DNA from: a virus
Taxonomy: Duplodnaviria > Caudoviricetes
Length of the DNA stretch: 36,124 nt
Reading direction: 5' to 3' (one strand)
IMG/VR virus record: IMGVR_UViG_3300028586_000010
Coordinates: 1-36,124 of that record
Positions within the stretch are counted from its first letter, which is position 1. The number at the start of each line of letters is the position of its first letter. Made by a program: the position numbers and the translations under genes. Shown here piece after piece: positions 1-36,124 of the stretch. The notes below the pieces were generated by a model. That model searched no databases. It saw only the letters and a program-made list of their open reading frames with translations, and was not told the origin of the DNA.

Positions 1-127
1 CTTGCCGAAGTCGCCCTCGCTCGGATCCATGCCGGCGAAGTCGGCCAGGTAACGCCAGGCCAGCAGCACTGCGGCGTAGTTGCCTGCCATGCGCTTGGCG
101 CCGTCGTCGCTCTCGCTGGCCCGGCTG
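1..127 (+). repeat. Terminal direct repeat, copy 1 (circular-assembly overlap)
   Basis: Identical to 35998-36124; lies inside a coding sequence. Confidence 0.95.
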
Positions 128-2373
128 TTGCGCAGGCAGTAGTCCCGCAGGCCTTCGTACTTGGCCAGCACGTCGGCGCGGTCCAGGTCGGTCAGGTACT
201 GCAGCCACTGGCGCACCGGGAAGCGCGGGAGATCCGCCGGCATCAGCGGGCCGCGCTTGCCGCTCAGGTCCGTGCGGACCAGCTTGCCCAGCAGGCTGCG
301 CACCGGCACGTCCTCGCCGGCAAGCATGACCGGCGCCGACAGCACGAACTGCGTCATGGCGGTGCCGCGCTTGGTCACGGTGTACTGGTAGCTCTCCTGC
401 AGCAGGCCGACCGCCTTGTCGATCACGTCCTGGCGGCGGGCGCTCAGTTCTTCCCAGCCCACGGGATGGCTGGTGTGGCTAATGCTGGTCAAGAGGCGGA
501 ATTCAGTCTCCAGACTTTGCCCGGAGAACATGGTGAAGCCCAGGGAGCGCTCCAGGCGCTTGATGAGGGTGGATTTACCGGCGCCCTTGTCGGCCTGGAC
601 GGTGATGTGCGGCCAGAAGCCCAGCAGGGCCTTGAGGTGGCCGCCCAGGGCCCAGGCCAGGGGGATGGCGGCCGCGTTCCGGTGGAACGTGCTTTGATAG
701 GCGCGGATCACGGTGGCGGCGTCCTGGACGTGGCCGGCCGGGAAGGTGAGGTTGTAGTAGGGGCACTGCTTCTCTGGCTCGGTGAAGTAGCAGTCGGGCC
801 CCTCGTTGACAGCCAGGCGGCTGTCCAGCCAGGCCAAGCCCACGAAGTTGGCGGCCGTGCGCGCGCCCAGGTGGGCGGTGCGCTCCAGGATCGTGACCAT
901 GCGGGAGAAGCGCTTGGGCTCGAAGATCGGGCCGAACTGACCCCATTGGGCCAGGTTGTGGACCTGCTTGTCGCCCATGACCTCGCGCACCAGCTGGGCG
1001 CCGTGGCGTGGGGTCTGCACGGTCACGGCGAAGTAGACGGTAGGGGAGTGGTCCGGGTCGCCGGTCATGGTCGACGAGGCGCTGGCCACGGCCACGCGGC
1101 TGAACGAAGCCACACGAAAGCCGCACAGGTCGGTATAGGTCGGCGTTTCCTCGCCTTCGTCGCCCTTCTGGTCCATGTTCAGGATATAGCTGGAGAAGTC
1201 CGGGCGTACCCTGTACCGCCAGTACTGCGAAAAGTCGTGGGTAGGCAGGTAGACGCGGGGCTTACCCTTGCGGGTGTCGTCACCAGCCAGGCCGGCGATC
1301 AGCCAGGTCTCCAGCTCGTCCATGGCCTTGCCCAGCTGCTGCGCGCCATGCTCCTGCAGGTAGTCGTTGGCGTCGTTGATAGTTTCGCCATCGAAGTCTT
1401 CCCCCTTCTTCCATTTCGCCTGGTCAACTATAAGCGCGCTGATGTTGAGCGCGGTCAGGCTCTCGTAGATCTTCCAAGCGGCGTTGGGGCCTGGCCGCTG
1501 GCCAGCCAGGCGATGCTCGGGTCCGAAAGGCTCGTCGTTGTCCATACAGATATAGACCTGCTTGCCGCGCAGGAACGTCCAGTCGATCAGCTCTGCATTG
1601 TTCAGGCCGCGCAGGGCGAATGAGGCCCATGCCGGCTTATCGGCAGTGTCGATCGACAGGGCATTGATAGCGCTTTCCACGATTGCCACATTCTTGGACC
1701 GGTCCAGCTTACGTGGGTCGGCCGTCCAGCCAATGCCGTCCTTCTCCCCCTGGCTCTGGGTCTTGTATCCGCCGTTCAGCTCGGGCTCGATGTAGCGCAC
1801 GTCCACGCCGGCCACGCGCTTGGTTCCTGGGAAGTAGGCAATGAAGGCGGCGCCAGGGCCGCCGTGGCCTTGCGTGCCGGCGGGCTTCTTCGGGCTGGTC
1901 CAGGAGTTGTAGCCCAAGGTGTTCGCCCGCAGCGCGGCGTCGATCGCCTCTTTGCTGATGCCCCGGTTTACGAGGTAATCCCGGATCTGTTCCTTCTCGG
2001 CCAGACTGCGCTTGGCGATACTCTCTGCCAGGGTCAGGGGTTCTCTGGGTTGGTTGGCCCGGTCCGGCGTGCTGAACGGAATACGGAACATTTCGTGCAG
2101 GATCTTCATGGCTTCGCTGACATCGCACCCGTGGACATAGCGCACCAGATCGATGCATGAACCGCCTTCTCCGCTGCTCCAGTCCTTCCAGCCGGTCCCG
2201 TGGTCGCGGTCGTCTACGAAGATCGATAGCGATGGGCTGCTGTCCTTGTGGTGCGGAGAGTGATACAGGGCCTTGCCCTTGCCCGGATCCTGGCCGGCGC
2301 CCAGGCGGAGGCCCAGGCGGTCGGCCAGCTCGTGCAGGTCAATGGTGCGTTTCAGTTCATCAATCGAGGCCAT
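1..2373 (-). CDS. Primase-helicase replication protein, N-terminal 791 codons (continues at 35997 to stop at 35584; ~928 aa total)
   Basis: Absent from the ORF track because it runs off the window end. ATG at 2373 gives MASIDELKRTIDLHELADRLG..YHSPHHKDSSPSLSIF..WKDWSSGEGGSCIDLV (DnaG zinc-finger-like N-terminus), TOPRIM-like VYICMDND..DANDYL, and Walker A QADKGAGKST. In frame with 35584..36087; frame spot-checked, not read codon by codon. Confidence 0.85.
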   Translation of the reverse strand, partial: MASIDELKRTIDLHELADRLGLRLGAGQDPGKGKALYHSPHHKDSSPSLSIFVDDRDHGTGWKDWSSGEGGSCIDLVRYVHGCDVSEAMKILHEMFRIPFSTPDRANQPREPLTLAESIAKRSLAEKEQIRDYLVNRGISKEAIDAALRANTLGYNSWTSPKKPAGTQGHGGPGAAFIAYFPGTKRVAGVDVRYIEPELNGGYKTQSQGEKDGIGWTADPRKLDRSKNVAIVESAINALSIDTADKPAWASFALRGLNNAELIDWTFLRGKQVYICMDNDEPFGPEHRLAGQRPGPNAAWKIYESLTALNISALIVDQAKWKKGEDFDGETINDANDYLQEHGAQQLGKAMDELETWLIAGLAGDDTRKGKPRVYLPTHDFSQYWRYRVRPDFSSYILNMDQKGDEGEETPTYTDLCGFRVASFSRVAVASASSTMTGDPDHSPTVYFAVTVQTPRHGAQLVREVMGDKQVHNLAQWGQFGPIFEPKRFSRMVTILERTAHLGARTAANFVGLAWLDSRLAVNEGPDCYFTEPEKQCPYYNLTFPAGHVQDAATVIRAYQSTFHRNAAAIPLAWALGGHLKALLGFWPHITVQADKGAGKSTLIKRLERSLGFTMFSGQSLETEFRLLTSISHTSHPVGWEELSARRQDVIDKAVGLLQESYQYTVTKRGTAMTQFVLSAPVMLAGEDVPVRSLLGKLVRTDLSGKRGPLMPADLPRFPVRQWLQYLTDLDRADVLAKYEGLRDYCLRNSRASESDDGAKRMAGNYAAVLLAWRYLADFAGMDPSEGDFGK

Positions 2374-2480
2374 GTCTCTGGTCTTTCTGGTCTTGTTCTT
2401 CGTTGCGGCGGCGTAAACGGGGGCCTACCGCGGCGCAGGTCGCGCTGCAGCAAGGCGTTATTTCTTGGATTGGTGGTGTA

Positions 2481-2816
2481 CTACTGAAGGGGCGACAAGC
2501 GGGCCAGCTTGGCCAATTCCACCAGGTCGGACGCGGTCAGTATGATGGCCTCGCCGTCCTCGTCCTTCATGAATAGGGTGAAACTGGTGGTTCGAGTACA
2601 GTCGATGCTCACCTTGCTGTGGCACGCGGACAGCTCGCCCAGGGCCTGCAGGGTGACCGTATGGGCCGTATCGGTGGACACGCAAGCGGTCTCGAGCAAA
2701 TGTTCAATGCAGCGGTCGACCAGGAGCTGGCGGTCCGGGCTCAAGTATTCATCCTGGTGGTCCTGCAGGAAGCTCAGGGCATTGGTGGTAAGCGCGTGGG
2801 TAGACATAGGCTTCAT
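2481..2816 (-). CDS. Hypothetical early protein (~111 aa)
   Basis: 3' part of ORF 2481..3071; start moved to MKPMSTHAL (2816; 2807 is an alternative) to avoid overlapping ogr. Confidence 0.65.
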   Translation of the reverse strand: MKPMSTHALTTNALSFLQDHQDEYLSPDRQLLVDRCIEHLLETACVSTDTAHTVTLQALGELSACHSKVSIDCTRTTSFTLFMKDEDGEAIILTASDLVELAKLARLSPLQ

Positions 2817-2829
2817 TCGTTTAGTCGGA

Positions 2830-3084
2830 TCAAATGGCCAGCTGCATCTGCTGCATGACACGCTCCCTCGCATGCGGGGACATAGGCACACGCACGTCTT
2901 GATTAGGCTTGCCGGAAGGGGATAGCCCACGAACGATTTCAAGTGCCGCCACGTAGGTGTAACCGCACTCCACGTCGAGGCACTGATAATGAATCTCTCG
3001 CATGGTCGAAGTCTTCTCATAGCTGCTACGCGCGATGCAGCGAGCTCCACAGTGAGGGCAACGGATAACAATTCGCAGGCTCAT
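2830..3084 (-). CDS. ogr: Ogr/Delta-family zinc-finger late-gene activator
   Basis: CPHC..IHYQCLDVECGYTY..LSPSGKPN, the C4 zinc-finger pattern of Ogr. Confidence 0.92.
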   Translation of the reverse strand: MSLRIVIRCPHCGARCIARSSYEKTSTMREIHYQCLDVECGYTYVAALEIVRGLSPSGKPNQDVRVPMSPHARERVMQQMQLAI

Positions 3085-3125: not shown

Positions 3126-3299
3126 TTACAACTGCTGTCCTTGTTGGGATTTATATGCCTTGAGGCCTAATCGGTAGATAATCCCAGCCATGGACTGTCG
3201 GCTGCGAACTTCGTCTTTACACATCTTTTCCAGCTGACTGTCCTCCTCCGGGGTGAGTGGGATTGGGACGCGGGGATCTTTGCGGGTCTCGGTTTTCAT
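3126..3299 (-). CDS. 57-aa ribbon-helix-helix-like regulator at the Cro/Cox position
   Basis: My translation: MKTETRKDPRVPIPLTPEEDSQLEKMCKDEVRSRQSMAGIIYRLGLKAYKSQQGQQL; strand-helix-helix pattern; divergent from cI; TAGGA just upstream; below the ORF-track size cutoff. Confidence 0.75.
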   Translation of the reverse strand: MKTETRKDPRVPIPLTPEEDSQLEKMCKDEVRSRQSMAGIIYRLGLKAYKSQQGQQL

Positions 3300-3431: not shown

Positions 3432-4148
3432 ATGAATCGAAATATCAAAATCTATAATATGCAAACAAAACAAGTCCTTGTACAAGAAATCATCGACAGG
3501 ATGAAAGCCGTATTGGGTTTCTCCAAGGACGATGAACTGGCCAATTACCTTGGTAAAAGCCGCAGCACGCCCGCTGGGTGGCGTACAAGAGGAATGATCC
3601 CGATTCAGGAAGCTATCGAAATCGCTCTGCAGCACGACATCAGCCTTGACTGGCTCGTTCTTAAACGTGGTAAGGGTCCGGGGCCGGAAGAGCCGGAGCA
3701 AACACAATCTACTGATGACAGTGTGGTGATGACTGGGGTGGGTGAGATTCCCGGTTACGTCGATCTTCCCGTGCTTGATATGGCCACCTTCAACTCGACC
3801 AGCAAGGATCGCGCCTGGAAAGTTCCGCGTCTGTGGCTTGACCAGGAAGGCCTGACGGAAACCGAAACCGTGATGGTGCGCGCGGCCGGCGATTCGATGA
3901 TCCCGGCCATCCAGGACGGACAAATGGTTGTTGTCGATCGACGTCAACGCGATTCGGATGGGGTCTACCTGGTGCGTTTCCGAGATGGTGATACGGTGCG
4001 CTTCAAGCGTGTGCAACGCATGTTCGATGGTTCCCTGCGCTTGTCGAATGACAACCCGGCTTACACCGTCGACACCGTTCCACGCGATGAAGTCGAGCGC
4101 ATCGAATTCATCGGGTACTGTCACGCTTCCGTGCAGTCGGTGCGATAG
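3432..4148 (+). CDS. cI: CI-like repressor, N-terminal HTH plus S24 peptidase domain
   Basis: IIDRMKAVLG..DDELANYLGKSRST..WRTRG (phage CI HTH); GDSM..P..DG..VVVD and FKRVQ..LSNDNPAY (S24 Ser/Lys). ATG 3459 is an alternative start. Confidence 0.88.
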   Translation: MNRNIKIYNMQTKQVLVQEIIDRMKAVLGFSKDDELANYLGKSRSTPAGWRTRGMIPIQEAIEIALQHDISLDWLVLKRGKGPGPEEPEQTQSTDDSVVMTGVGEIPGYVDLPVLDMATFNSTSKDRAWKVPRLWLDQEGLTETETVMVRAAGDSMIPAIQDGQMVVVDRRQRDSDGVYLVRFRDGDTVRFKRVQRMFDGSLRLSNDNPAYTVDTVPRDEVERIEFIGYCHASVQSVR

Positions 4149-4443: not shown

Positions 4444-4737
4444 CTATTCTCGGCTTTCCATCCAATCTGCCGCTGTCGCCTCAGCATCTTTATAGGCCTC
4501 GACCAATAGGAAGGCGGTGTAGGCATTGGCAGCGCTTGCCACACGGGGAGCGCACTGCTGCAGATGCCAAGCCCGTTCATCTTCCTGCATTCCATTCCAC
4601 CAAGCGATGCCTTTTGCCTCATCTGCAATGGCCGGGAACACTCCTCTTCCTACTTCTTGGCCGTCCTGTAGAAGACGGAGGTTCCAGCCACCACCCAGTT
4701 CGGTCGCACGTGGATTAATTTCGTAACTGTAGGCCAT
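4444..4737 (-). CDS. Hypothetical protein (97 aa)
   Basis: GGAG upstream; last gene of a tightly packed three-gene leftward unit. Confidence 0.7.
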   Translation of the reverse strand: MAYSYEINPRATELGGGWNLRLLQDGQEVGRGVFPAIADEAKGIAWWNGMQEDERAWHLQQCAPRVASAANAYTAFLLVEAYKDAEATAADWMESRE

Positions 4738-4967: not shown

Positions 4968-5228
4968 TCAGGTAATGGTGGATTGTTCTCGTTGCCACTT
5001 TGTGAAGTCGACCTCGGCGTGGCGCAGGCCCAGGCCCTGAATCTCTACTAAAGCGGTCTCGATCTTGGCGAAGGCCTTAGGGTTCTGACGCGCAGAACGC
5101 ACAATGAACTCGTGGCGCCCGCGCAACACGATGGCCCAGCGCCGGCCGTCGAAGCATTCGATGATCGCTCGCGTGACGGCGTTAGTGGCTACCAGTGTCT
5201 TGGCCGTGTCGATAGTGACGCTTTCCAT
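4968..5228 (-). CDS. Small plasmid-associated protein, resembling those annotated 'partition protein C'
   Basis: T-I-D..L..LV..W.I..R..F.K.ET....++..G+...EVD pattern recalled from plasmid ParC-like proteins; GAGG upstream. Confidence 0.55.
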   Translation of the reverse strand: MESVTIDTAKTLVATNAVTRAIIECFDGRRWAIVLRGRHEFIVRSARQNPKAFAKIETALVEIQGLGLRHAEVDFTKWQREQSTIT

Positions 5229-5251
5229 GCTGACGTAGCCTCAATAAATTA

Positions 5252-5281
5252 AAAGTGTTCTACACTTTATATCAAAGTGTA
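5252..5281 (-). promoter_or_regulatory. Promoter/operator with three alternating AAAGTGT/ACACTTT boxes
   Basis: aaagtgt-tct-acacttt-atatc-aaagtgt, overlapping a minus-strand TTGATA -35 element. Confidence 0.55.
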
Positions 5282-5310
5282 TGGCGGTAGCTAGCGCGGT
5301 GTAGCTGTCG

Positions 5311-5338
5311 AGTTGACATAAAAGCCGTTACACGCGAC
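5311..5338 (-). other. dif-like XerC/XerD recombination site
   Basis: Minus strand GTCGCGTGTAA-CGGCTT-TTATGTCAACT has the 11-6-11 layout of E. coli dif (GGTGCGCATAA-TGTATA-TTATGTTAAAT). Confidence 0.55.
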
Positions 5339-8640: not shown

Positions 8641-9663
8641 CTAGTCGTCGGCGCCGGTGCCAGCGGCCTCGGTGTCGCGCACCTCGAGCTCGAGCTCGGT
8701 GGTGAATCCACCGTCTGCTATCGAGTGGCGGACCTGCTTGACCAGCCAGGGCGTGCTGTCGATCTCGGGCTTGAACCCGGACACCGATATCGGCAGCTCG
8801 GGCGAGATCTCGGCCCGGCCGATCGCCAGGCTGTAGGACAGCGTGGCTTCATTGCGTTGCATGCGCTTGAGCTCGGCGCCGGCGGCCGCGCGCGCTTCGC
8901 TCTCGGTCGGGTAGACCTCGGGCAGGCGCTTCAGGTTTTTGTTGCTCTCGCCGCCCACGGTCACCTGCTTTTTCTCGGCGTCCCCATTGCTGTGGTAGGA
9001 AGCGCGCACGCCGGCATAGGTCTCGCGCTCGGTAATGTTGTACCGGTGCCGATCGCCATCAGCGCGCTTGATCGTCAGGGATGGCAAGGCGCGGCCGCTG
9101 GCGGTGCGCGCGGTGCCGATCGGCAGGAACAGCAGGTTCCCATCCTTCACGGTCATGACGGCATCGTATCGCTTGGCCAGGCGCGTCAGGAACGACATAT
9201 CGCTCTCGTTCGTCTGGTCGATGTGCGGGACCACGATGCTGGCTAGGCGCTCACCCACAACCGGCTTCAACTGGTGGCGGCCAGCGATCGTGCGCACGAT
9301 CGCGCCCAGGTTCTGGCCATGCCAGCTTTTCTCCTGGCGTTCGCCCATGCCATTGGTCATCGACGCGCTGCGCGCGCGGATCGTGATGCTGTCCGGTGAG
9401 CCGCTGTGTTCGACCTCGTTCACGGTGAACGTGCCCTTGTTGACCAGGCCGGCGCCGGCCCAGCCGATCGACACCTCGAGAACCGCGCCGCGGTTCGGGA
9501 TGGCCATGCGGCCGTCGTGGTCGTCCAGGGTCAGATCCAGGGTGTCAGCCTCGTCCTGCCGGGATTCACTGATGCTCAGGGCCTGCAGGCGCGGCTCGAT
9601 CTTGCTTGTCAGGTCGCGGCCGTCCAGGGTGATGCGGAATGCTGGCTCGAGTGCGGTCGTCAT
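8641..9663 (-). CDS. D: Tail/baseplate hub protein GpD
   Basis: EADTLDLTLDDHDG..HIDQTNESDMSFLTRLA..SGFKPEID, P2 gpD motifs and position. Confidence 0.93.
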   Translation of the reverse strand: MTTALEPAFRITLDGRDLTSKIEPRLQALSISESRQDEADTLDLTLDDHDGRMAIPNRGAVLEVSIGWAGAGLVNKGTFTVNEVEHSGSPDSITIRARSASMTNGMGERQEKSWHGQNLGAIVRTIAGRHQLKPVVGERLASIVVPHIDQTNESDMSFLTRLAKRYDAVMTVKDGNLLFLPIGTARTASGRALPSLTIKRADGDRHRYNITERETYAGVRASYHSNGDAEKKQVTVGGESNKNLKRLPEVYPTESEARAAAGAELKRMQRNEATLSYSLAIGRAEISPELPISVSGFKPEIDSTPWLVKQVRHSIADGGFTTELELEVRDTEAAGTGADD

Positions 9664-10115
9664 GCGTAGCTCCCGAAGTCCTGGCCAGCGCCCAGGTCGC
9701 CCACGTAGCTGCCCTGGCGCGGGCTCGGCGCTGCGCGGTCGTCATCGGTCCGGGTAAGGTTGATTGTGAAATCCACGCGGCGCGGCGTGCCATCCTTGTG
9801 GTGCAAGGTTTGACCCTCGTCCAGGCCCTCGAGGAGGAAAGCGCCGTATACCTGGCCGGCGCCGTCGACCAGGGCATAGGCGGCGCCAGTGTCGCCCATC
9901 GCGCGCAGCTCCTTGAGCGATTCCAAGGAGCCAGTCAGCTCCGGTGCCAGGAGGCCGGTGATGGTGATGGTGTCATCCCCCTGGCCCAGAAACTGACGTG
10001 CATCGCGTGCACCGATGCGTGATGCGCTCGAATGCTTCCAGCGGGTTTGCCTCTGCAGCTCGCTAAACGAAAGCGACTCCATACCGAATACGAACTGGCC
10101 AAGTGCCATCAACAT
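9660..10115 (-). CDS. U: Tail protein GpU
   Basis: MLMALGQFVF..QFLGQGDDTITITG, P2 gpU. Confidence 0.92.
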   Translation of the reverse strand: MLMALGQFVFGMESLSFSELQRQTRWKHSSASRIGARDARQFLGQGDDTITITGLLAPELTGSLESLKELRAMGDTGAAYALVDGAGQVYGAFLLEGLDEGQTLHHKDGTPRRVDFTINLTRTDDDRAAPSPRQGSYVGDLGAGQDFGSYA

Positions 10116-10128
10116 AGGTTCTCCTTTC

Positions 10129-13039: not shown

Positions 13040-13105
13040 GGTGTTCTTTCGTAGTCAGGGGTAAGTAAAAGGGGAAGCGGCCGCGCGCGGCGGCCGCTGG
13101 CCGGC

Positions 13106-22044: not shown

Positions 22045-22051
22045 AACGTAT

Positions 22052-24887: not shown

Positions 24888-24900
24888 GATTGGCTCCTTT

Positions 24901-25583: not shown

Positions 25584-25679
25584 GGGATTGTCTCGGGAAA
25601 GTGGGCGGTGGGCCGGCATCGGATGGATCAGGCAAAGCCATCCCATCGTCCGCCGGCGCCGCCCTGGCCGGGGGGCTCG

Positions 25680-26360
25680 TTACGTGGTGGCGCCGTCCTG
25701 CGCGCCACCGTCCAGCTGCTTCTGCAGCCGGGCAATGTCTTGTTTCACGCCAACGCGATCGAACAGCTTGACCGCGCGCTCGAGGTACGGCAAAGCCGTG
25801 GCTGGATCGCTCTGCTGGGCCAGGCCGATCGCCTTGTACTGCTTGGCGCGCACCTGGTCATGCATGTCGATCGGGTCGGTCAGCTTGGCCACCTCCAGCA
25901 GCTGCTGGACGTCGAACAGCTGCTCGGCCTTGATCGCCTCCAGGGCGCGATCCGAGATCTCCTCGGCCAGCACCGTGGCCAGCGACCGGTCGAAGTGGTC
26001 AGGCATGGTCAGGCCGTGCTGCAGGGCGTAGCCGGCGATCGCCAGCGCGCCGGCGATGTCGCCCACGTCGATGCGCCAGGTCATGACCGTGACCAGCACT
26101 TCGTCCTGGGCGCCGCGGCCGCCGGCCAGCACGCCATCGACGTACTCGACGTAGTCCGGCAGCAGCTCGCGTTTGACGTCGACCTTGCGCTCGACCGACT
26201 GCACCGACTTGAGGCGCCGGCGGTCAGCGTGCAACTTGGCCATCATCAGCTCGTAGGCGCTGGATCCGGCCATGCTGGCCGACCCATCAGCCGAGGCCGA
26301 GGCGGCCGCCAGCTGCGCGGTCACCTGTTGGTAGTGGCGTTGGGCTGGCGTCTTCATCAT
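25680..26360 (-). CDS. M: Terminase small (endonuclease) subunit GpM
   Basis: TPAQRH..YELM..RRLKSVQS.ERK..QDEVL..WRID.G..DMHDQVRAK..VGVKQDI. Confidence 0.92.
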   Translation of the reverse strand: MMKTPAQRHYQQVTAQLAAASASADGSASMAGSSAYELMMAKLHADRRRLKSVQSVERKVDVKRELLPDYVEYVDGVLAGGRGAQDEVLVTVMTWRIDVGDIAGALAIAGYALQHGLTMPDHFDRSLATVLAEEISDRALEAIKAEQLFDVQQLLEVAKLTDPIDMHDQVRAKQYKAIGLAQQSDPATALPYLERAVKLFDRVGVKQDIARLQKQLDGGAQDGATT

Positions 26361-27373
26361 TCCCACTCGGTCGTGATGTTCTCAACCAGGCAGCCTGCGC
26401 GGTAGTCCTCGATCACGTAGTCGTCATTGCTCGACTCGTAATTTTCGATCTGGTCGCGCTTCGGGTTGTCGATGATGGCGCGGCGACGGGCGCCGTCCTG
26501 GTAGTAGATCGACAGGTTATCGAGGCGAGTAATCATCACCGCATTGGCCGGGAAGAATGGGACCTGGACAGCCTGCAGGCCGCCGATGCGCTTCTGGCTG
26601 AGAACGACGTCGGCCGCCATCTTTTCGCTGTTGTCCTGGTCCTTGTTCACCAGTGGGAAGTACTTGTCCTGCAGCAGGCCGCGGCCGCAGATCACGACCA
26701 GCTCGGGATCGTCCGCATACACCTCGTCGACCAGGTTGTTGACGGCATCCATCACCAGGGCGTCCAGGTTCTTGTAGTCGGCGCCGGCCGCGATGCCAAC
26801 GCGGATCTCGCCCACGGTCGCGCCCTGCTTCATGACGCGCGCCGGAGCTTGTTCGCGGTACTTCTGCAGCCAGCCTTTGCCCACGTCCTGCAGCTTGGGG
26901 TTGGCGGCGCGGTTCGAGGTGGCGGCGCGCTCGACACCATTGAAGCCGATCATGATGCGATCGCGGGCTTGCTGCTTGACGATGGCATCGCGCACGCGAG
27001 TCTGGAAATCCGGGAACTTTGCCCAGGAGTCCAGCTTGGTATAGCGCAAGGCGGTATCGAAGTTGATCTGCTGGCACTGGTACGTATTGCCAGTCATATC
27101 GGTCGGATCGGTCGGGGTCCGGTCCTTGGTGGTGGTGTCGGTCGTGCTGGCGATGGTGCCGGTCGTGCCCAGGCCCAGCTTTTCGCCTTGCTGTTCGTCC
27201 ACGCCGATTACGTTGATGCGGGACAGGAAGTCGCTCGACAGTTGGATCCGGTCTTCCAGCTTCTGCTGAACGGATGGAGCCACCGAGAATTTCTCGGCAG
27301 CGTTAGCTACACCGCTCAGTTGAGCGATGGCCACCGCATAGGCGGTGTATTTGAGGCGGGTGTTGTTACGCAT
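26357..27373 (-). CDS. N: Major capsid protein GpN
   Basis: MRNNTR..FSVAPSVQQKLE..DRIMIGFNG..LQDV.KGWLQK..LDNLSIY..ESSNDDYVIEDY. Confidence 0.96.
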   Translation of the reverse strand: MRNNTRLKYTAYAVAIAQLSGVANAAEKFSVAPSVQQKLEDRIQLSSDFLSRINVIGVDEQQGEKLGLGTTGTIASTTDTTTKDRTPTDPTDMTGNTYQCQQINFDTALRYTKLDSWAKFPDFQTRVRDAIVKQQARDRIMIGFNGVERAATSNRAANPKLQDVGKGWLQKYREQAPARVMKQGATVGEIRVGIAAGADYKNLDALVMDAVNNLVDEVYADDPELVVICGRGLLQDKYFPLVNKDQDNSEKMAADVVLSQKRIGGLQAVQVPFFPANAVMITRLDNLSIYYQDGARRRAIIDNPKRDQIENYESSNDDYVIEDYRAGCLVENITTEWE

Positions 27374-27399
27374 GGTCTCTCCAGTGTGCGTGTTAGGGA

Positions 27400-28362
27400 T
27401 TAGCAGTCGGTAACGACCTTGTTGTCGCCGCCGGTAACCAGTGGACGTGGCGGAGTGCCATCCGGCGCAGCGGACAGCTTGGCGGTGAGGTCAGCCACCT
27501 GGTCGCGCAGCTCTTTGAAGCCGGTTGCTACGGCGGCTGCTGTTTCCTGGCTGTGCGTGGCGACGGCTTCCACCGCCTCGTGCACGTCCTTGAAACGCGC
27601 GTCGGATGCCTGGTCCTGCTCCTTGGTGGATTTGCCCAGCAGGCCCTGGACCTTCGACAGCAGCACGGCGCCAAGGCTCTTGGTTTCCATCTCGATGACC
27701 AGCTCCTCATCGGCCGCACTGAACAAGTTGGCCGGGTCCTGCTTTTTCTTGGCCAGTGGGCTGGCGGCCGGATTCTTGGCGGCGAAGGCCAGGATCTCGG
27801 TACCCAGGCTGGCCGGGTTGTCGGTTACAGCCAGGCCGACCAGGTAGGCCTCGCCGGTGTCGGCAAAGCTCGGGTTGATCTCACAGGAGGTGTAGATCTT
27901 CTGGCCGGCCTTGGTCATGGCCACCAGGTCGGCGGTTGGCTTGATCTGGGCGTACAGGCCCAGCTTGCCATCTGGCTCGTCGCGGGTTTCCAGGGCCAGG
28001 ACATCGCCATAGGCCTTGAATGGGCCATCCGGAACGACACCGCGGAAGTGTTCCAGGTTGATCCGGGCACCGTAGGTATTGACCGGGTCGTAGTTGGTGG
28101 CCATCTGCTCCAGCCAGTCGCGTTCGATGACGCGGCCGTCCGTGGTCGCGCCTTCCTTGGCAATGCGGAAGAGCTTGGTCTTCTCGGCGTGGTTACCGGT
28201 GCCGCCGGCGGCCGCGGTCATGCCCATCAGGCCGAGGCCGGTGGCGATGCCGGCATCAGCACCGGGCATCTGCAGGGCTGCTGCTGCCTGGGTATCGAAA
28301 GCACAGGCTACCAGGGCGGCGACGGCGCCCAAAGCCAGCGGGAAGTAGCGTTTGCGGATCAT
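27400..28362 (-). CDS. O: Capsid scaffold/protease GpO with hydrophobic N-terminal extension
   Basis: FRIAKEGATTDGR..ARINLEH..QKIYTSCE..YLVGLAVTDNPASLGTE; GGAG SD before MIRKRY at 28362. Confidence 0.92.
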   Translation of the reverse strand: MIRKRYFPLALGAVAALVACAFDTQAAAALQMPGADAGIATGLGLMGMTAAAGGTGNHAEKTKLFRIAKEGATTDGRVIERDWLEQMATNYDPVNTYGARINLEHFRGVVPDGPFKAYGDVLALETRDEPDGKLGLYAQIKPTADLVAMTKAGQKIYTSCEINPSFADTGEAYLVGLAVTDNPASLGTEILAFAAKNPAASPLAKKKQDPANLFSAADEELVIEMETKSLGAVLLSKVQGLLGKSTKEQDQASDARFKDVHEAVEAVATHSQETAAAVATGFKELRDQVADLTAKLSAAPDGTPPRPLVTGGDNKVVTDC

Positions 28363-28399
28363 GTGTTCTCCAACGAGGTTAATGGTGTTGACCAGAGGC

Positions 28400-28504
28400 A
28401 TGTTGTCCTGTTGCGCTTGCTGACTCAATCACCGGCTTATGTACTCGCAGCGAGTACATCAGCCGCTTGTCGCCCTCACGCGCGCGTAGCCCTACGCTTC
28501 GTCC
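28400..28504. promoter_or_regulatory. Ogr-type box shared by the divergent late promoters pO and pP
   Basis: CGGCTTATGT-ACTCGCAGCGAGT-ACATCAGCCG (28433-28465); -10 elements CAACAT (minus) and TACGCT (plus), each 27 bp from the box. Confidence 0.8.
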
Positions 28505-30268
28505 ATGCTCGACAACACCCCAACCGATCAACCCGATTTCGACCCGCGCCGGGCCGCGCGTGCCCTGTATTGGCAGGGTTGGCGGATCTCGTCCATTGCC
28601 CGCCATTTCAGCTTGAAACGCGCCACGGTGGAGTCCTGGAAACAGCGTGATGAGTGGGATAAGTCGACCCTGCTAGAACGCATTGAGTCGTGCGTCGAGA
28701 CGCGCCTGGTGGCCCTTATCTCTAAGGAGAAGAAAGACGGCATCGACTTCAAGGAAATCGATCTGCTGATGCGCCAGATGGGCCAGTCGGCGCGCGTGAA
28801 AAAGTACGAGGACACTGGGCGCGAAAGCGACCTGAACCCGAACTTGGAGCGCAAGGACGCTAAGCCGCGCAAGAAGGCGGCGCGCAACGAATTCAGCGAG
28901 GAGCAGATCGAGAAGATCCGGGAGGCCTTCCTGGACTCCCTGTTTGGCTACCAAAAGGTATGGCATCGCCAGGGCCATCAGCGCACGCGCAACATTCTCA
29001 AGTCGCGCCAGATCGGCGCCACGTGGTACTTCGCGCGTGAAGCGCTGCTCGATGCCCTGGAGACCGGCCGCAACCAGATCTTCCTCTCAGCCAGCAAGTC
29101 TCAGGCTCACGTTTTCAAGCAATACATCATCCAGTTCGCCCGGGAGGTGTGCGATATCGAGCTGCAGGGGGATCCCATCGTATTGCCGAACGGCGCGCAC
29201 CTGTACTTCCTGGGCACGAATGCCCGCACCGCGCAGAGCTACCACGGAAATTTCTACTTTGACGAGTACTTCTGGGTGCCGAAATTCCCAGAGCTGAACA
29301 AGGTGGCCTCGGGCATGGCCATGCACGACAAGTGGCGCAAGACCTACTTCTCCACACCGTCGAGCATGAGCCATAGCGCCTATCCATTCTGGAACGGCAA
29401 CCACTACAACAGGGGCCGATCGAAGGGTGAACAGATCAACCTGGACGTGACGCACAAGATGCTGGCCAAGGGCCGCCTTTGCGAAGACGAACAGTGGCGG
29501 CAGATCGTGACCGTGGAAGACGCGTTTGAAGGCGGCTGTAACCTGTTCAATCTGGATCGCCTCCGCCGGGAATACAGCGCGGAGGAATACGCCAACCTGC
29601 TGATGTGCCAGTTCATTGACGACACGGCCAGCATCTTCAAGTTCAGTGACCTGCAGGCCTGCGGCGTCGACAGCTGGGTGGACTGGGTGGACGTCAAGTT
29701 CTTCGCCATGCGGCCGTTCGGCCACAACCCGGTTTGGATCGGGTACGACCCGGCGCGGTCGGGCGACTCGGCCGGCTGCGTCATTCTGGCGCCGCCGAGT
29801 CGTCCAGGGGGCAAGTTCCGCGTGCTGGCACGCCACCAGTGGAAGGGAATGGACTTCGAGGCACAAGCCAAAAGCATCCAGGACCTGTGCGCACAGTACA
29901 ACGTGACCTACATGGCGATCGACACGACCGGCATCGGCGCCGGCGTCTATGAGCTGGTCAAGAAGTTCTACCCGGCCGTGGTGGGACTTCACTATTCGCC
30001 GGAAGTGAAAAGCCGGCTGGTCCTCAAAGCACTGTCGGTCATTGGCAACGGTCGCCTGGAGTGGGATGCCGGCTGGACCGACATGGCGCAATCGTTCATG
30101 GCCATCCGCAAGACGATGACCCCTACCGGTCGCCAGGTCACATTCACCGCCGGGTATAGCCAAGAGACCGGGCATGCCGACCTGGCTTGGGCCTGTATGC
30201 ACGCCCTGGGCAATGAACCGCTGGAAGGCGGCACCGCCACCAACACCTCAATACTGGAGTTTTCCTGA
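28505..30268 (+). CDS. P: Terminase large (ATPase) subunit GpP
   Basis: LYWQGW..WKQRD.W; NILKSRQIGATWYFAREA; YFDEYFW; IGYDPA..GD; HADLAWA. Confidence 0.96.
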   Translation: MLDNTPTDQPDFDPRRAARALYWQGWRISSIARHFSLKRATVESWKQRDEWDKSTLLERIESCVETRLVALISKEKKDGIDFKEIDLLMRQMGQSARVKKYEDTGRESDLNPNLERKDAKPRKKAARNEFSEEQIEKIREAFLDSLFGYQKVWHRQGHQRTRNILKSRQIGATWYFAREALLDALETGRNQIFLSASKSQAHVFKQYIIQFAREVCDIELQGDPIVLPNGAHLYFLGTNARTAQSYHGNFYFDEYFWVPKFPELNKVASGMAMHDKWRKTYFSTPSSMSHSAYPFWNGNHYNRGRSKGEQINLDVTHKMLAKGRLCEDEQWRQIVTVEDAFEGGCNLFNLDRLRREYSAEEYANLLMCQFIDDTASIFKFSDLQACGVDSWVDWVDVKFFAMRPFGHNPVWIGYDPARSGDSAGCVILAPPSRPGGKFRVLARHQWKGMDFEAQAKSIQDLCAQYNVTYMAIDTTGIGAGVYELVKKFYPAVVGLHYSPEVKSRLVLKALSVIGNGRLEWDAGWTDMAQSFMAIRKTMTPTGRQVTFTAGYSQETGHADLAWACMHALGNEPLEGGTATNTSILEFS

Positions 30269-31311
30269 TGAAGAAGCACAATTACCGCCGCGGCGCTGCT
30301 GCTGCGCCAGCTGCCGCACCGGCCAGTCCGCCGGCATCCGTCGAGGCCTTCACGTTCGGAGATCCGACACCGGTCATGGACCGCGCCGAGATCCTGAATT
30401 ACCTGGAATGCCTGTCCAACGGCCGCTGGTACGATCCGCCGGTTAGCTTCGCCGGCTTGGCCAAGTCATTCCGCGCCGGCGCGCACCACGCCTCCGCGCT
30501 GTACTTCAAGGCCAACATCCTCACGTCCACCTTCAAGCCACACAAGCTCTTGTCGAGTGCCGAGTTCGGGCGCCTGGCCTTGGACTATATGACGTTCGGC
30601 AATGGCTACGTGGAGCGCCGGGATAACCTGATGAACCGTCCCCTAAAGCTGGTGGCCCCGCTGGCCAAGTACATGCGCCGCGGCCTCGAGGCGGGACAAT
30701 ACTTTTCCCTGGATGGCACAAACGACCCTCACGAATTCAAGACCGGCTCAATCTTCCACCTGGTCACGCCGGATATCAACCAAGAGGTGTATGGCTTGCC
30801 CGAGTACCTGGGCGCCCTGCATTCGGCGTGGCTGAACGAGTCGGCCACGCTGTTCCGACGCCGCTATTACGAGAATGGCAGCCATGCCGGCTTCATCCTC
30901 TACATGACCGACGCAGCTCAGACAGAGGCGGACGTTACCGCGCTGCGCACGGCGCTCAAGGACAGCAAGGGGCCCGGCAATTTCCGCAACCTGTTCATGT
31001 ATGCGCCTGCAGGGAAGAAGGATGGCATCCAGCTCATCCCAATCAGCGAAGTGACCGCGAAGGACGAATTCTTCAACATCAAGAACGTGAGCCGGGACGA
31101 CATGCTGGCGGCGCATCGAATTCCGGCCCAGCTGATCGGCGTGGTGCCGCAAAACGCAGGCGGATTCACTGATCCGGCGACAGCGGCCAAGGTGTTTGGC
31201 CGCAATGAGATCAAACCGCTACAGACGCGCTTCCTGCAGCTGAACGAGTGGCTGGGAGATGAGGTGGTGCGCTTCGTGCCATACACACTAGAGATGGACG
31301 AAGCGGCATAG
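30268..31311 (+). CDS. Q: Portal protein GpQ
   Basis: EAFTFGDP.PV..QEVYGLPEY..LNESATLFRRRYYENGSHAGFI..KG.GNFRNLF. Confidence 0.96.
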   Translation: MKKHNYRRGAAAAPAAAPASPPASVEAFTFGDPTPVMDRAEILNYLECLSNGRWYDPPVSFAGLAKSFRAGAHHASALYFKANILTSTFKPHKLLSSAEFGRLALDYMTFGNGYVERRDNLMNRPLKLVAPLAKYMRRGLEAGQYFSLDGTNDPHEFKTGSIFHLVTPDINQEVYGLPEYLGALHSAWLNESATLFRRRYYENGSHAGFILYMTDAAQTEADVTALRTALKDSKGPGNFRNLFMYAPAGKKDGIQLIPISEVTAKDEFFNIKNVSRDDMLAAHRIPAQLIGVVPQNAGGFTDPATAAKVFGRNEIKPLQTRFLQLNEWLGDEVVRFVPYTLEMDEAA

Positions 31312-31314: not shown

Positions 31315-31848
31315 CTATTCGAGAAGGCTGCCTTGCGCCGGCGCGGGCGCCGCCGGATCGATAGCGTCCAGCTGGATCTCCTCATTGAAGTGCATGAGCG
31401 GTACTGCCAACATTTCCTCGGCCTGCTGAATCAGCTCGTCAACCTGCTGGGCCTGCTCGGACTCGTCCACCAGGATCTGGGCGTTGAACGAAGCAAACCG
31501 GGCGCCCCGTTCTCCCTGCCAGGCCACGCGAGAGTTGATGATATAGACGTTGGCATTGCCAGACTTCAGCACCTGGACAAACTTGCAATCACGTAAGACG
31601 ACGATGGTGTTCTGCACGGTACGCTGGGAAATTCCCATCTGCTTGGCGATCGCGGCCGCGCTCATGACAACTCCGTTGGTTCCGCGTGACAGTTTCGAGA
31701 CCATGAAGTGTAAGACAGACAACGCCATCGGATGCTGAATACCCAGCTTCCACATTGCCTGATGTGCCGCCTTGTCCGACTGCAGCCAGCCTTGCGTCTT
31801 ATTGCCTCGACCATCTTCTTGCGGAAGCGTAATGTTTTCGCCCATCAT
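31315..31848 (-). CDS. rep: Plasmid replication initiator, pBBR1-Rep/RepL-like winged HTH
   Basis: GW+Q.+..AH.A..L..P.A..+LH.+V..N.VV+S..+.K.+G.S.RTVQ..Y++N.RVAW..F.A.++VD..+Q, matching pBBR1 Rep as I recall it. Confidence 0.85.
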   Translation of the reverse strand: MMGENITLPQEDGRGNKTQGWLQSDKAAHQAMWKLGIQHPMALSVLHFMVSKLSRGTNGVVMSAAAIAKQMGISQRTVQNTIVVLRDCKFVQVLKSGNANVYIINSRVAWQGERGARFASFNAQILVDESEQAQQVDELIQQAEEMLAVPLMHFNEEIQLDAIDPAAPAPAQGSLLE

Positions 31849-31859: not shown

Positions 31860-32220
31860 ATGCTATGGTTACGCATGGTAGTGCATAGATCGCGCATTTG
31901 CAACGTATTCGGACGCAATATATGGGTACTGAATACTTCCCGAGTGCGTAGCCCTACGCACCGCGCAGCGTATTACACCGCCTTACCGAAACTCCAAAGG
32001 TTTCGATTTATCCACGCGCATTCTCGCCTCTTTTTTGCGCAAATGTACGCACCCCGATTCGCAGTTCTACGCACCACGGTTCGCAGTTCTACGCACCAGC
32101 GTGCGTAATCGTCTTTTCAAAGTAGCCTTAGAGAAATAAGGCGGCGTTCATCTTTTTGCAACTTATTTGCCCTATTAGGATGTTGCACCTTTTCTGGTGC
32201 TCTCCAAGGGTATGAAAAGT
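31860..32220. repeat. Putative plasmid oriV: TACGCA palindromes, iterons and AT-rich segment
   Basis: TACGCACC at 32046, 32068 and 32090 (22-bp period; shared TTCGCAGTTCTACGCACC); palindromes at 31944-31961 and 32090-32107; AT-rich 32108-32220; directly upstream of rep. Confidence 0.75.
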
Positions 32221-32976: not shown

Positions 32977-32989
32977 GGCCTTCGGAGGT

Positions 32990-33105
32990 CCCCTCCCCGC
33001 CTCCGGTCTATGTCGAGGCCTCTGTTGTGATGCGCGCCCCCTCCCCGGGCCGCAGCCCGCTCCTGCTGGGCTTCGCCGGGATCCTGGGCGAATCGGTTTG
33101 ATGCG
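32990..33105 (+). other. Candidate cos packaging region
   Basis: Downstream of Q as in P2; TCCCCGCCTC and GCGCGC..TCCCCG..GCCCGCT..CGGTTTGATGC resemble the P2 cos region as I recall it. Confidence 0.35.
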
Positions 33106-33189: not shown

Positions 33190-33590
33190 CATCGTGGATT
33201 CGTGGATCAGGTCATTTCCTGCTGTAACTCTTTGATTTTTTTCAAATTGGGCTTCCATGGAATCCACGAAAAACCCGATTCGCCCATGGAAAACCCGTGG
33301 ATTAAAAAATAGGCAGATTGGAAAACTCATGGAGACGAGGCTAAACCCTGTGGATGCGCGTGTGGGGGCCTTTGTATCTCTCTGCCCTTCTTTCTTCTTT
33401 CTTTTCAATAACTTAAAGAAGAAGAAGAAGAGGGCGGCGCAGGCGGTCCGGCAGGGCCTGCAAACAGAGTTCGTGGAAAAACTGGGGTAGTTCGTGGAAT
33501 TCTGTGGGGTAGTCGTGGGAGGTTTTCCCTCGCCAATCAATGACTTAGGTGAAAAGTGTACCGCAATCCACGGGTTTTCTGTGGTGTGTG
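33190..33590. repeat. Putative lytic origin: CGTGGA-type repeats, IHF sites and purine/pyrimidine AT-rich core
   Basis: Many CGTGGA/TCCACG/CATGGA hexamers; WATCAANNNNTTR matches at 33225-33237 (minus) and 33535-33547 (plus); central TTCTTTCTTCTTT...AAAGAAGAAGAAG inverted tract. Confidence 0.6.
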
Positions 33591-33677
33591 TGTCCTCCCA
33601 TTGCCGAGAATGCACGGAGGCCGCCAGGCCGTCGACGCCCGCCTGGCCAGGGCGCTGAATCAATCCGGGGAAAACTC

Positions 33678-33769
33678 ACATCAACATTACATCAACTTGC
33701 AATATGAATTAAGTTGATGTATTGTTGATGCACACAACACATTATGTTGATGTATACATGATGTATAGA
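33678..33769. repeat. parS-like/operator repeat cluster 1 (ACATCAAC)
   Basis: ACATCAAC at 33678 and 33689; inverted copies at 33713, 33724 and 33746; variant at 33758. Confidence 0.7.
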
Positions 33770-34253: not shown

Positions 34254-34910
34254 ATGACGATTTACACCGTAGCGAACACCAAGGGCGGGGTGGGCAAGTC
34301 CACCAGTACTGTCCAGATCTCGACCGGCTTTTCCCTGCGTGGGGAGGATCCCTGGGTGGTGGACGCCGACAAGAAACAGACGTCGGCCTTGCTGTCGCTG
34401 ACGAACAGGGTAAATGCCGGCCTGCCCGGGATTCCGGCCACCGAACTCGGGGACGGCGCCACGCTGCGCGCCCAGGTGCGCCTGCAGGCGCCGAAGTTCA
34501 AACACACGTTCATCGACGTGGGCGCCCGGGATTCCGGCGCGCTGCGCGCCGCCCTAACGATCACGCAAGTACTTGTGGTGCCGTTTGCGCCCCGGGCTTA
34601 TGACCTCTGGGCATACGAACAGATGATCGAGCTGGTGAGGGAAGCCCAGGAGGAACGCGAGATCCTGGTGGTGCCGTTCCTGAACATGGCGGACCCACAT
34701 GATGGCCCAGGATCCGACAACGCCATTGCGATCGCTGACGTGGAGGCCTATGGCTTCAAAGTCGCCCCGGTTCGCTTGGGCAATCGCAAGGCTATTGACC
34801 GGGCCAGTGCGGCCGGGCTGAACGTGAGTGAGTACAAGCCAGCCGACGAGAAGGCCCGCCTTGAGGTAGGCCAGCTGGTCGACTACCTCCTGGGACTCTC
34901 GCGCTCTTGA
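34254..34910 (+). CDS. parA: ParA Walker-type partition ATPase (short, type Ib)
   Basis: NTKGGVGKST deviant Walker A; VVDAD; FIDVG; no N-terminal HTH. Confidence 0.93.
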   Translation: MTIYTVANTKGGVGKSTSTVQISTGFSLRGEDPWVVDADKKQTSALLSLTNRVNAGLPGIPATELGDGATLRAQVRLQAPKFKHTFIDVGARDSGALRAALTITQVLVVPFAPRAYDLWAYEQMIELVREAQEEREILVVPFLNMADPHDGPGSDNAIAIADVEAYGFKVAPVRLGNRKAIDRASAAGLNVSEYKPADEKARLEVGQLVDYLLGLSRS

Positions 34911-35293: not shown

Positions 35294-35319
35294 CAGCGTG
35301 ATGGGTCATGCGAAAGGAC

Positions 35320-35349
35320 AAGGGCCACCATGACGGTGGCCCTTTTTTT
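35320..35349 (+). terminator. Rho-independent terminator between the par operon and the convergent early operon
   Basis: AAGGGCCACC-atgac-GGTGGCCCTT followed by a T run. Confidence 0.85.
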
Positions 35350-35575
35350 ATGCCTGCAGCCTGGCCATGTAGGCCCGGCGCTGCTCGACCTGGTCGGTGT
35401 CCAGTTGGTCGTACTTGGTGCAGTCGCGCAGGGGTTCAGCCGGGTAATAGCGGGCCGGGTCTGGGTGGCCCTGGCAGCGGCCCAAGCCCTGGGCCCGCAT
35501 GCCCTTGTCGCTGCGTTCATGGGTCATCCGGTCCTTGACCGTGAAGCGGCGGCAGCTGATGCAGTTGACTGGCAT
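35348..35575 (-). CDS. Small Cys-containing hypothetical protein (75 aa)
   Basis: AGGAG SD before MPVNCISCRRF..GRC..DC; directly after the primase-helicase stop. Confidence 0.7.
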   Translation of the reverse strand: MPVNCISCRRFTVKDRMTHERSDKGMRAQGLGRCQGHPDPARYYPAEPLRDCTKYDQLDTDQVEQRRAYMARLQA

Positions 35576-35583
35576 GGCCGCTC

Positions 35584-36124
35584 CTATTCGGCGCTCGGGC
35601 CGTTGTTGAGCTTGACGGCCACGTGCAGGCCATAGCCGGCCAGGGCTTGGAGCGATAGCGGCGTGAGGTTGTTGACGCGCATGTTCAGGATGGTACGTTC
35701 CACCTCCTTGTCGCCCTGCAGGACCTTGGCGGTCTTGAGCTGCTTTTTGAACACGGTGGCCGACTTCACCGGCATGCCGTTCCACTTGTCGCGCAGGTGC
35801 ATCGACGTGGCCAGGTGCTCCATGACGTGAGACGTGCGGACCAGCAGGCATTCCTCGCCGTCCACCTTGTCGAACTTGTACGGATGCTTGAAGGTGCCGC
35901 GGTCGATCTCCGACAGCAGCGTTTCCATGATCCAGACCCACGGCGAGCGGTCGGAGTCCGATTCCGAAATGTGGGAGTTCATTTCCGCAATCAGGTCCTT
36001 GCCGAAGTCGCCCTCGCTCGGATCCATGCCGGCGAAGTCGGCCAGGTAACGCCAGGCCAGCAGCACTGCGGCGTAGTTGCCTGCCATGCGCTTGGCGCCG
36101 TCGTCGCTCTCGCTGGCCCGGCTG
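35584..36124 (-). CDS. Primase-helicase, C-terminal part (joins 1..2373 across the circular junction)
   Basis: Same frame as 1..2373 through the 127-bp overlap; winged-helix-like C-terminus. Confidence 0.85.
   Translation of the reverse strand, partial: SRASESDDGAKRMAGNYAAVLLAWRYLADFAGMDPSEGDFGKDLIAEMNSHISESDSDRSPWVWIMETLLSEIDRGTFKHPYKFDKVDGEECLLVRTSHVMEHLATSMHLRDKWNGMPVKSATVFKKQLKTAKVLQGDKEVERTILNMRVNNLTPLSLQALAGYGLHVAVKLNNGPSAE
35998..36124 (+). repeat. Terminal direct repeat, copy 2 (circular-assembly overlap)
   Basis: Identical to 1-127. Confidence 0.95.

What the first reader, a model, noticed from the sequence alone, without database searches (positions are those of the whole stretch)
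1..36124. P2-like phage that appears to lysogenise as a pBBR1-type plasmid (dual-replicon phage-plasmid)
Seen: a complete circular P2-type virion gene set with no integrase or recombinase. In their place are a Rep with adjacent iterons just downstream of Q, parA plus an RHH gene with repeat clusters, and a dif-like site. Known: typical P2-likes (P2, 186, phiCTX, RSA1) integrate, and pBBR1 Rep drives a broad-host-range plasmid. Inference: the prophage is a partitioned plasmid (Rep/oriV), while lytic growth uses the primase-helicase and a second origin. I do not know a characterised P2-like phage with this exact combination. KS14-like Burkholderia phages are the relatives to compare first.
Basis: partly seen in the sequence, partly recalled or inferred. 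Interest (0 to 1): 0.85.

Follow-up and report, generated by a model that had tools for sequence, protein, structure and literature searches.

The report
KS14-like P2 phage-plasmid with Xer cassette
This is a complete P2-type bacterial virus with no integrase that likely persists as a low-copy plasmid in Massilia/Duganella-like bacteria, a lifestyle already shown for phage KS14; its one unusual trait is a widespread dif-like site plus small gene that likely borrows the host's XerCD enzymes to untangle plasmid dimers.

Summary
Observation confirmed; the lifestyle is already known. The window is a 35,997-bp circle with a full P2 virion set and no tyrosine or serine recombinase. After the portal gene come a RepL-family rep with 22-bp-spaced repeats, a cos-like site, a second repeat origin, and parA plus an RHH gene. 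Burkholderia phage KS14 has this gene order and was isolated as a plasmid prophage in 2010; FLC5 has a RepL homologue in the same slot. The Rep is only 31% identical to pBBR1 Rep, so 'RepL family' fits better than 'pBBR1-type'. The closest relatives are stand-alone 34-35 kb integrase-free contigs in Massilia and Duganella genomes. Similarity to KS14 is about 32%, so this is a different genus. What is new is a swappable slot after cI: 12 of 19 related elements carry a small serine recombinase, 6 carry a dif-like site plus a ParC-like gene, 1 has the gene alone, none has both. The site lies 108-111 nt upstream of that gene in 38 of 39 distinct loci, most of the long ones lacking P2 genes. It likely resolves dimers through host XerCD; this is untested.

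The parts
1..2373 (-). Primase-helicase, N-terminal part (928 aa across the circle junction); predicted lytic replication protein
   Evidence: phrog_5629, 1369 bits, Toprim_3; 66% to KS14 gp2, 67% to integrase-bearing SBP15
35584..36124 (-). Primase-helicase, C-terminal part
   Evidence: phrog_5629 positions 748-920
2830..3084 (-). Ogr/Delta late activator
   Evidence: PF04606 E 1e-16
3126..3299 (-). Arc-like repressor (predicted Cro-like role)
   Evidence: phrog_3431
3432..4148 (+). CI-type repressor with S24 peptidase domain; predicted SOS-inducible switch
   Evidence: PF07022 + PF00717; 40% to KS14 gp5
4444..4737 (-). Small conserved ORF that usually travels with the ParC-like gene
   Evidence: co-occurs in most cassette loci; no family hit
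4968..5228 (-). ParC-like small protein (86 aa) of the dif cassette
   Evidence: NF041544 E 1.8e-4, 21 bits against cut-off 95; Atlas PF28031 clusters, score 0.88, a lead only; 130 homologues
5229..5310 (-). Conserved ~80-nt flank between the XerD arm and the ParC-like start codon, with ACACTTT/AAAGTGT palindromes
5311..5338 (-). dif-like Xer core site (11-6-11)
   Evidence: fixed 108-111 nt offset in 38 of 39 distinct loci
8641..28428 (-). P2 tail, baseplate, lysis and head genes D to O, with a methyltransferase on + at 21271-22044
28505..31311 (+). Terminase P and portal Q
   Evidence: 71% and 67% to KS14
31315..31848 (-). RepL-family plasmid initiator
   Evidence: PF05732; FLC5 ORF44 43.5%; pBBR1 Rep 31%
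31944..32107 (.). Predicted plasmid origin: palindromic site plus three 22-bp-spaced iteron-like repeats
   Evidence: the repeat type changes with the rep allele
32985..33003 (.). Predicted cos site
   Evidence: aligns with FLC5 position 1, which the authors set at the cos end
33190..33600 (.). Predicted lytic origin for the primase-helicase: TCCACG/TCCATG repeats round an AT-rich polypurine block
   Evidence: 10 repeats in 500 bp, shuffle maximum 5; two blocks shared with SBP15 at 10406-10545, between its int and primase genes
33678..33769 (.). parS-like repeat cluster (further clusters at 34185-34240 and 34918-34968)
   Evidence: conserved in G001, G002, G005, G006
34254..34910 (+). ParA partition ATPase
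   Evidence: phrog_164, NF041546
34982..35293 (+). Ribbon-helix-helix partner (predicted ParG-type centromere binder)
   Evidence: PF01402 E 0.0012, below cut-off; phrog_18157

Best explanation
This is a P2-type phage with KS14's gene order and no recombinase that likely lysogenises Massilia/Duganella-like hosts as a low-copy circular plasmid and likely uses host XerCD at a dif-like site to resolve dimers. Shown: the gene set, the absence of recombinases, the repeats, the dif-like site and its fixed linkage to a ParC-like gene, and integrase-free relatives on their own contigs in bacterial genomes. Inferred steps: DNA circularises at cos; CI represses lytic genes; RepL initiates at the 22-bp repeats; ParA and the RHH protein partition the plasmid via parS; XerCD at 5311-5338 stands in for KS14's small serine recombinase; after SOS cleavage of CI the primase-helicase replicates from the second origin and Ogr switches on late genes. 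My odds: plasmid prophage about 0.9; dimer resolution by XerCD about 0.7; ParC-like protein a required cofactor about 0.25.
For: KS14 has the same layout and was recovered by plasmid miniprep from five lysogens. Nearest relatives sit on their own contigs: Duganella sp. SG902, 34,319 bp with a 95-nt terminal repeat; G489:C246, 35,331 bp with 127 nt; Paraburkholderia lycopersici, 33,955 bp with 95 nt; Massilia sp. YIM B02763, 35,079 bp, no repeat but gene order closing on itself. None has a hit to the SBP15 integrase. The chromosomal dif flanks of G002 and G489 show no phage sequence (1.5 kb each side, only ~160 nt on one side in G489). In run X23 a ~96%-identical element has word depth 617-714 and the single dominant rpoB contig 357, about 1.7-2 times (a rough hint, the tool warns depth is no copy number). 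Plasmid-type elements form one primase clade (96/98) apart from SBP15, G177 and G244. The repeat type changes with the rep allele. The second-origin blocks are shared with integrase-bearing SBP15. Serine recombinase and dif cassette never co-occur in the cI-D interval: 12, 6, 1 gene only, 0 both, of 19. All 38 cassette spacers read differ from the common host dif spacer at 4 or more of 6 positions.
Against: No lysogen of this exact phage was seen; the record comes from a metagenome, and any cos phage assembles as a circle. ParA of this type also occurs in P2-like phages with gpA and another layout, so it is not diagnostic alone. G006 has neither recombinase nor site, so resolution may be dispensable. 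The 19 elements are kin, not independent, and the site profile was trained on cassette loci. Lynch et al. call KS14 gp6 invertase-like; 'resolvase' is my inference. Several cassette-bearing contigs without P2 genes also carry a serine recombinase (L280, L285, L301, L304, L307). One ParC-like homologue lies on a 7.44-Mb Pseudoduganella contig, context not seen.
Confidence: 0.8

Rival explanations
1. The phage integrates at the host dif site through XerCD (an IMEX), with Rep and Par serving an episomal phase or left over.
For: Well-formed XerD arm, 10 of 11 to host dif. IMEXs lack their own integrase (PMC5357621). One ParC-like gene is on a 7.44-Mb contig and a fragment lies ~96 kb from dif in G438.
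Against: The spacer matches the host spacer on neither half, whereas TLC attP shares the central region and VGJ attP differs only on the XerD side. G002 and G489 carry free circles with phage-free dif flanks. No high-depth loose end at the site among the rows shown for X1 or X23 (table cut).
Confidence: 0.07
2. Plasmid prophage, but the dif-like site marks the edge of a mobile dif module that shuffles cargo, and the ParC-like gene is a passenger with its own promoter/operator.
For: Sequence conservation stops at the XerC arm. The cassette is on 17 of 22 long contigs without P2 genes. L280, L304 and L307 have a second dif-like site 3-5 kb away. The conserved flank is on the XerD side and looks like a promoter/operator.
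Against: Most long loci and all complete circles with the cassette have a single strong site. The 108-111 nt spacing holds across proteins down to 67% identity. The cassette fills the slot of the serine recombinase.
Confidence: 0.25
3. The phage is lytic or a carrier-state phage, and the plasmid genes no longer work.
For: The FLC5 authors leave open that FLC5 cannot lysogenise. The source is a metagenome.
Against: cI, rep, parA and the RHH gene are intact and 53-99% conserved in the Massilia/Duganella clade. Relatives persist in bacterial genome assemblies.
Confidence: 0.05

Closest known systems
Burkholderia phage KS14 (Kisquattuordecimvirus; PMC3091744)
   Same: Gene order primase-ogr-arc-cI-[slot]-tail-head-P-Q-rep-parA-RHH; no tyrosine integrase; plasmid prophage shown by miniprep; 33 of 45 queried window proteins hit, mean 54% (one query was out of frame). 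Listed as a phage-plasmid in the VP882 community (PMC7969092).
   Different: Rep_3 initiator instead of RepL; serine recombinase instead of the dif cassette; about 32% intergenomic similarity; Burkholderia host.
Burkholderia phage FLC5 (PMC7815583)
   Same: RepL-family gene in the same slot (43.5%), cos between rep and parA, ParA 43%.
   Different: Serine recombinase and no dif-like site; different origin repeats; lysogeny not shown; ORF44 annotated as hypothetical.
pBBR1 and other RepL-family replicons
   Same: Homologous HTH initiator (31% over 146 aa). A Paracoccus RepL plasmid, pMOS6, replicates from its Rep alone with iteron-like repeats upstream (PMC3832669 passages; not shown to be among my hits).
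   Different: Only family-level identity; small alphaproteobacterial plasmids score higher (31-41%); no origin homology to pBBR1 was tested.
Other P2-like plasmids: pArsFIN13 (Arsenophonus), pZM36 (Zymomonas)
   Same: P2 virion genes, a ParA-type ATPase and no annotated integrase, on circles filed as plasmids.
   Different: pArsFIN13 pairs P2 gpA with an RPA-family initiator, so it is a separate build of the same two-replicon idea.
Plasmid Xer sites cer/psi and TLC XafT (PMC5357621, PMC6744903)
   Same: 11-6-11 Xer core on an extrachromosomal element; FtsK-independent use needs a helper.
   Different: Here the conserved flank is ~80 nt, lies on the XerD side and ends in an element-encoded gene. 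cer/psi use ~180-200 nt and host PepA with ArgR or ArcA (that these lie on the XerC side is recalled). XafT has a DUF3653 domain and serves integration.

Membership tests
P2-like phages (Peduoviridae) | P2-type head, packaging and contractile tail genes in P2 order | tested here: met
P2-like phages (Peduoviridae) | cos site near Q | tested here: met
   32985-33003 aligns with the FLC5 cos end; by sequence only
Genus Kisquattuordecimvirus | At least 70% intergenomic similarity (threshold as quoted in PMC13100340) | tested here: not met
   32.1% to KS14, 33.0% to FLC5 by my own BLASTN calculation with VIRIDIC-like settings
KS14-type phage-plasmid | Plasmid rep after Q, parA plus RHH, primase-helicase, no tyrosine integrase | tested here: met
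KS14-type phage-plasmid | Extrachromosomal prophage in a lysogen | tested here: inconclusive
   Not testable for the window itself; shown indirectly for relatives
KS14-type phage-plasmid | Small serine recombinase after the repressor | tested here: not met
   the dif cassette fills the slot
pBBR1 replicon | Close Rep identity to pBBR1 | tested here: not met
   31% over 146 aa; family-level only
RepL-family iteron replicon | PF05732 initiator with direct repeats upstream | tested here: met
RepL-family iteron replicon | Autonomous replication from rep plus repeats | not testable with these tools
   needs cloning
Xer target site | Two 11-bp arms round a 6-8 bp spacer resembling host dif | tested here: met
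   host XerD over cut-off in 3 of 3 host genomes
Xer target site | Recombined by XerCD | not testable with these tools
   needs a resolution assay
IMEX | Central-region homology with host dif and presence at dif | tested here: not met
   4 or more of 6 spacer mismatches in 38 of 38; dif flanks phage-free in 4 of 4 genomes examined, two of which carry a circle
ParC family (NF041544) | Score above the curated cut-off | tested here: not met
   21 bits against 95; a distant relative at most

The most novel reading that the evidence does not exclude
The dif-like core, its 80-nt XerD-side flank and the ParC-like gene form a self-contained mobile resolution cassette in which the element's own small protein licenses host XerCD without FtsK, PepA or ArgR. 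This would be a new route of plasmid Xer control and a first function for ParC-like proteins, and the cassette is interchangeable with a serine resolvase in P2 phage-plasmids.
Probability: 0.25. Interest if true: 0.65.

Novelty: new variant of a known kind. Interest (0 to 1): 0.33.

Why it matters
The headline (a P2-like phage living as a plasmid with two replicons) has been in print since 2010 for KS14, so it is not a surprise. The window extends that group to a likely Massilia/Duganella lineage below the 70% genus line. It also shows that two slots swap between close relatives: the replicon (two RepL alleles or Rep_3, each with its own repeats) and the resolution slot. The dif-plus-ParC-like cassette gives a cheap test of how Betaproteobacterial plasmids use XerCD and of what ParC-like proteins do. 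I found no description of it in three literature searches (listings only for most papers).

Tried and rejected
A strict dif pattern found nothing in the window; an arm-by-arm scan did. A weak integrase_1 hit on 7662-8108 (15 bits against 350) was rejected; the protein resembles KS14 gp7 (41%). AlphaFold model of the ParC-like protein: pLDDT 84. Foldseek gave no match at E 0.001 or better, and the best VIA match was ribosomal eL38 at Z 6.8, within noise, so no function follows. The XerD-ParC-like complex prediction returned no answer. The ParC-like protein has no match in PLSDB plasmids. Distant NF041544 loci: 9 of 20 upstream windows exceed the background 95th percentile for Xer arms, three with a CGGG spacer at 119-133 nt; AT-rich promoters may explain this, so it is not used. 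KOPS-like motifs: only 4, uninformative. Rfam: 0 hits. PADLOC: only the methyltransferase, 1 of 6 proteins. Earlier scan findings: none. A search for Massilia/Duganella plasmid prophages listed nothing relevant among 15 of 1,033 papers. The Duganella rep first looked like a new family but is a distant RepL allele. One query ORF was out of frame and was corrected to 33832-34188. Small-share sequencing runs were not used, apart from X10, laid once on rpoB with no useful cover.
Full report
Observation. The window is a closed circle of 35,997 bp (127-nt terminal repeat; direct terminal repeats and 100% complete). The P2 head, packaging, tail, baseplate and lysis genes are present in P2 order. Six-frame searches find no tyrosine recombinase and no serine recombinase, with positive controls ringing. 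After Q come rep (31315-31848, minus), iteron-like repeats (31944-32107), a cos-like site (32985-33003), a second repeat array (33190-33600), parS-like clusters, parA, an RHH gene and a 928-aa primase-helicase that crosses the junction. All three repeat clusters exceed 100 of 100 dinucleotide shuffles, with motifs chosen after inspection.

The Rep. It is PF05732 RepL. It matches pBBR1 Rep at 31% over 146 aa, small alphaproteobacterial plasmids at 31-41% and, as the only phage among 50,697 records, FLC5 ORF44 at 43.5% (two records). 'RepL family' is therefore the defensible label. A RepL plasmid of Paracoccus replicates from its Rep alone and has iteron-like repeats upstream (PMC3832669, passages).

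What is known. KS14 has the same gene order with a Rep_3 initiator. Lynch et al. recovered it by plasmid miniprep from five putative lysogens (PMC3091744; passages and section 12). Pfeifer et al. list it among phage-plasmids (PMC7969092, passages). FLC5 and CEP1 share the layout (PMC7815583, first part of the text). pArsFIN13 and pZM36 are other P2-like plasmids. The window is about 32% similar to KS14, 33% to FLC5, 57% and 53% to the Massilia and Duganella contigs and 65% to G005, all under the 70% genus line quoted in PMC13100340 (passages; that paper has no occurrence of 'plasmid').

Lifestyle and host. The two best of 80 loci kept (257 relatives) in the genome scan with a ParA alignment are stand-alone contigs of Massilia sp. 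YIM B02763 (82%) and Duganella sp. SG902 (79%). The Duganella, Paraburkholderia and G489 contigs close with terminal repeats and have no integrase hit; the Massilia contig has no repeat and 56 N. G489 is in the same genus as SG902. Host dif flanks are free of phage DNA in 4 of 4 genomes examined. In run X23 a close relative has about 1.7-2 times the depth of the dominant rpoB contig, which is 91.5% identical to Massilia rpoB; the tool warns that such depth is no copy number, and minor other organisms are present. The primase occurs in 5 of 401 and 7 of 401 sampled genomes. The two copies I fetched from long contigs (G177, G244) lack rep, par and dif hits within 20 kb and fall outside the plasmid clade in a 21-row primase tree (midpoint root). 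The host assignment to Oxalobacteraceae is inferred from these relatives. Against: no lysogen of this phage was seen, circles arise from any cos phage, and this ParA type also occurs in P2-like phages of another layout (that phiE12-2 integrates is recalled).

Two replicons. The repeats next to rep change with the allele: one set with the window's RepL, another with the Duganella RepL allele, another with Rep_3. Distinct portals with each rep beside Q number 15, 7 and 10. The second array keeps two blocks in KS14, FLC5 and integrase-bearing SBP15, which has the primase but no rep or parA hit. It therefore likely serves the primase. Both assignments are inferences from co-variation.

The dif cassette. 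The best Xer-like site is 5311-5338 (minus). Against a Duganella chromosomal dif it has 1 mismatch in the XerD arm and 4 in the XerC arm, and 0 of 60 shuffles match as well. It starts 110 nt upstream of an 86-aa gene distantly related to ParC. Of 62 loci fetched with this gene's alignment, 45 had at least 65% identity, an intact 5' end and enough upstream DNA; they collapse to 39 distinct sequences, and 38 have the core at 108-111 nt. The 17 left out were short, partial or distant; one of them, L316 (83% over a partial match), showed no site. Conservation begins at the XerC arm and runs through an ~80-nt palindrome-bearing flank to the start codon. Of 22 loci of 9 kb or more, 17 lack P2 genes, and several carry parA or Rep_3. 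In the cI-D interval, 35 rows collapse to 19 elements: 12 serine recombinase only, 6 site plus gene, 1 gene only, 0 both. The window's nearest primase relative, G007, has the recombinase and the other RepL allele, so both slots swap over short distances. These elements are kin, and KS14 gp6 is described as invertase-like, so equivalence to a resolvase is inferred. The spacer differs from the common host spacer at 4 or more of 6 positions in 38 of 38 sites read, which argues against integration of the TLC or VGJ type (PMC5357621, passages). Plasmid Xer sites need helpers, either host proteins on ~200 bp of flank or XafT (PMC6744903 passages; PMC9226527 passages). An element-encoded gene at a fixed distance is thus a candidate helper. 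The predicted fold gave no functional clue, and the flank may simply be the gene's promoter and operator.

Literature limits. Ten searches were run; none listed a description of this cassette or of such phage-plasmids in Massilia or Duganella. Most hits were seen as listings only, subscription journals are not covered, and no supplements were read; the phage-plasmid tables of PMC7969092 may hold further KS14-like elements.

Verdict. The window is a new genus-level variant with a RepL replicon, already present in FLC5, and a dif-plus-ParC-like cassette in place of a serine recombinase. Interest 0.33. The most novel reading, an element-encoded Xer helper, has probability about 0.25 and would merit about 0.65.

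Noticed in passing
window 5821-7605 (-): 594-aa low-GC (~46%) cargo gene with only an unknown PHROG hit and no PADLOC hit; close relatives in runs X2, X23 and X24 skip it.
   Followed up: partly
window 8105-8344 (-): C-terminal half of an MqsA-type antitoxin, also in G001, G005 and G008; no toxin partner was identified among the ORFs scanned.
   Followed up: no
window 32220-32480: Hairpin-rich non-coding block between the iterons and cos, conserved (about 80%) in relatives with a different rep allele; no Rfam hit; function unknown.
   Followed up: partly
window 14877-14938, 21133-21194, 28400-28461: Three 62-nt repeats before FI, before V and between O and P, each holding a TGT-N13-ACA box; likely Ogr-activated late promoters.
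   Followed up: partly
window 4345-4400: A stray parS-like repeat and a copy of a cI-operator-like motif (also at 3315) just downstream of cI; may tie the cassette's transcription to partition or immunity control.
   Followed up: no
window 16744-18618 (-): Second 624-aa tail-associated gene between I and H with a weak glycerophosphodiesterase-type PHROG hit; a possible surface-polymer hydrolase.
   Followed up: no
L098-L150 (IMG/VR): Many P2-like loci carry this ParA-RHH pair beside P2 gpA in a different layout, without a plasmid rep hit; the role of the pair there is unexplained.
   Followed up: no
L280:5026, L304:5025, L307:6795: Second dif-like sites 3-5 kb from the cassette on contigs without P2 genes; possible dif modules in Oxalobacteraceae-type plasmids.
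   Followed up: no
PLSDB NZ_CP014526.1, NC_015969.1, NZ_CP066556.1: Further 32-35 kb 'plasmids' with a P2 capsid gene in Haematospirillum and Enterobacter; possible further P2 phage-plasmids.
   Followed up: no
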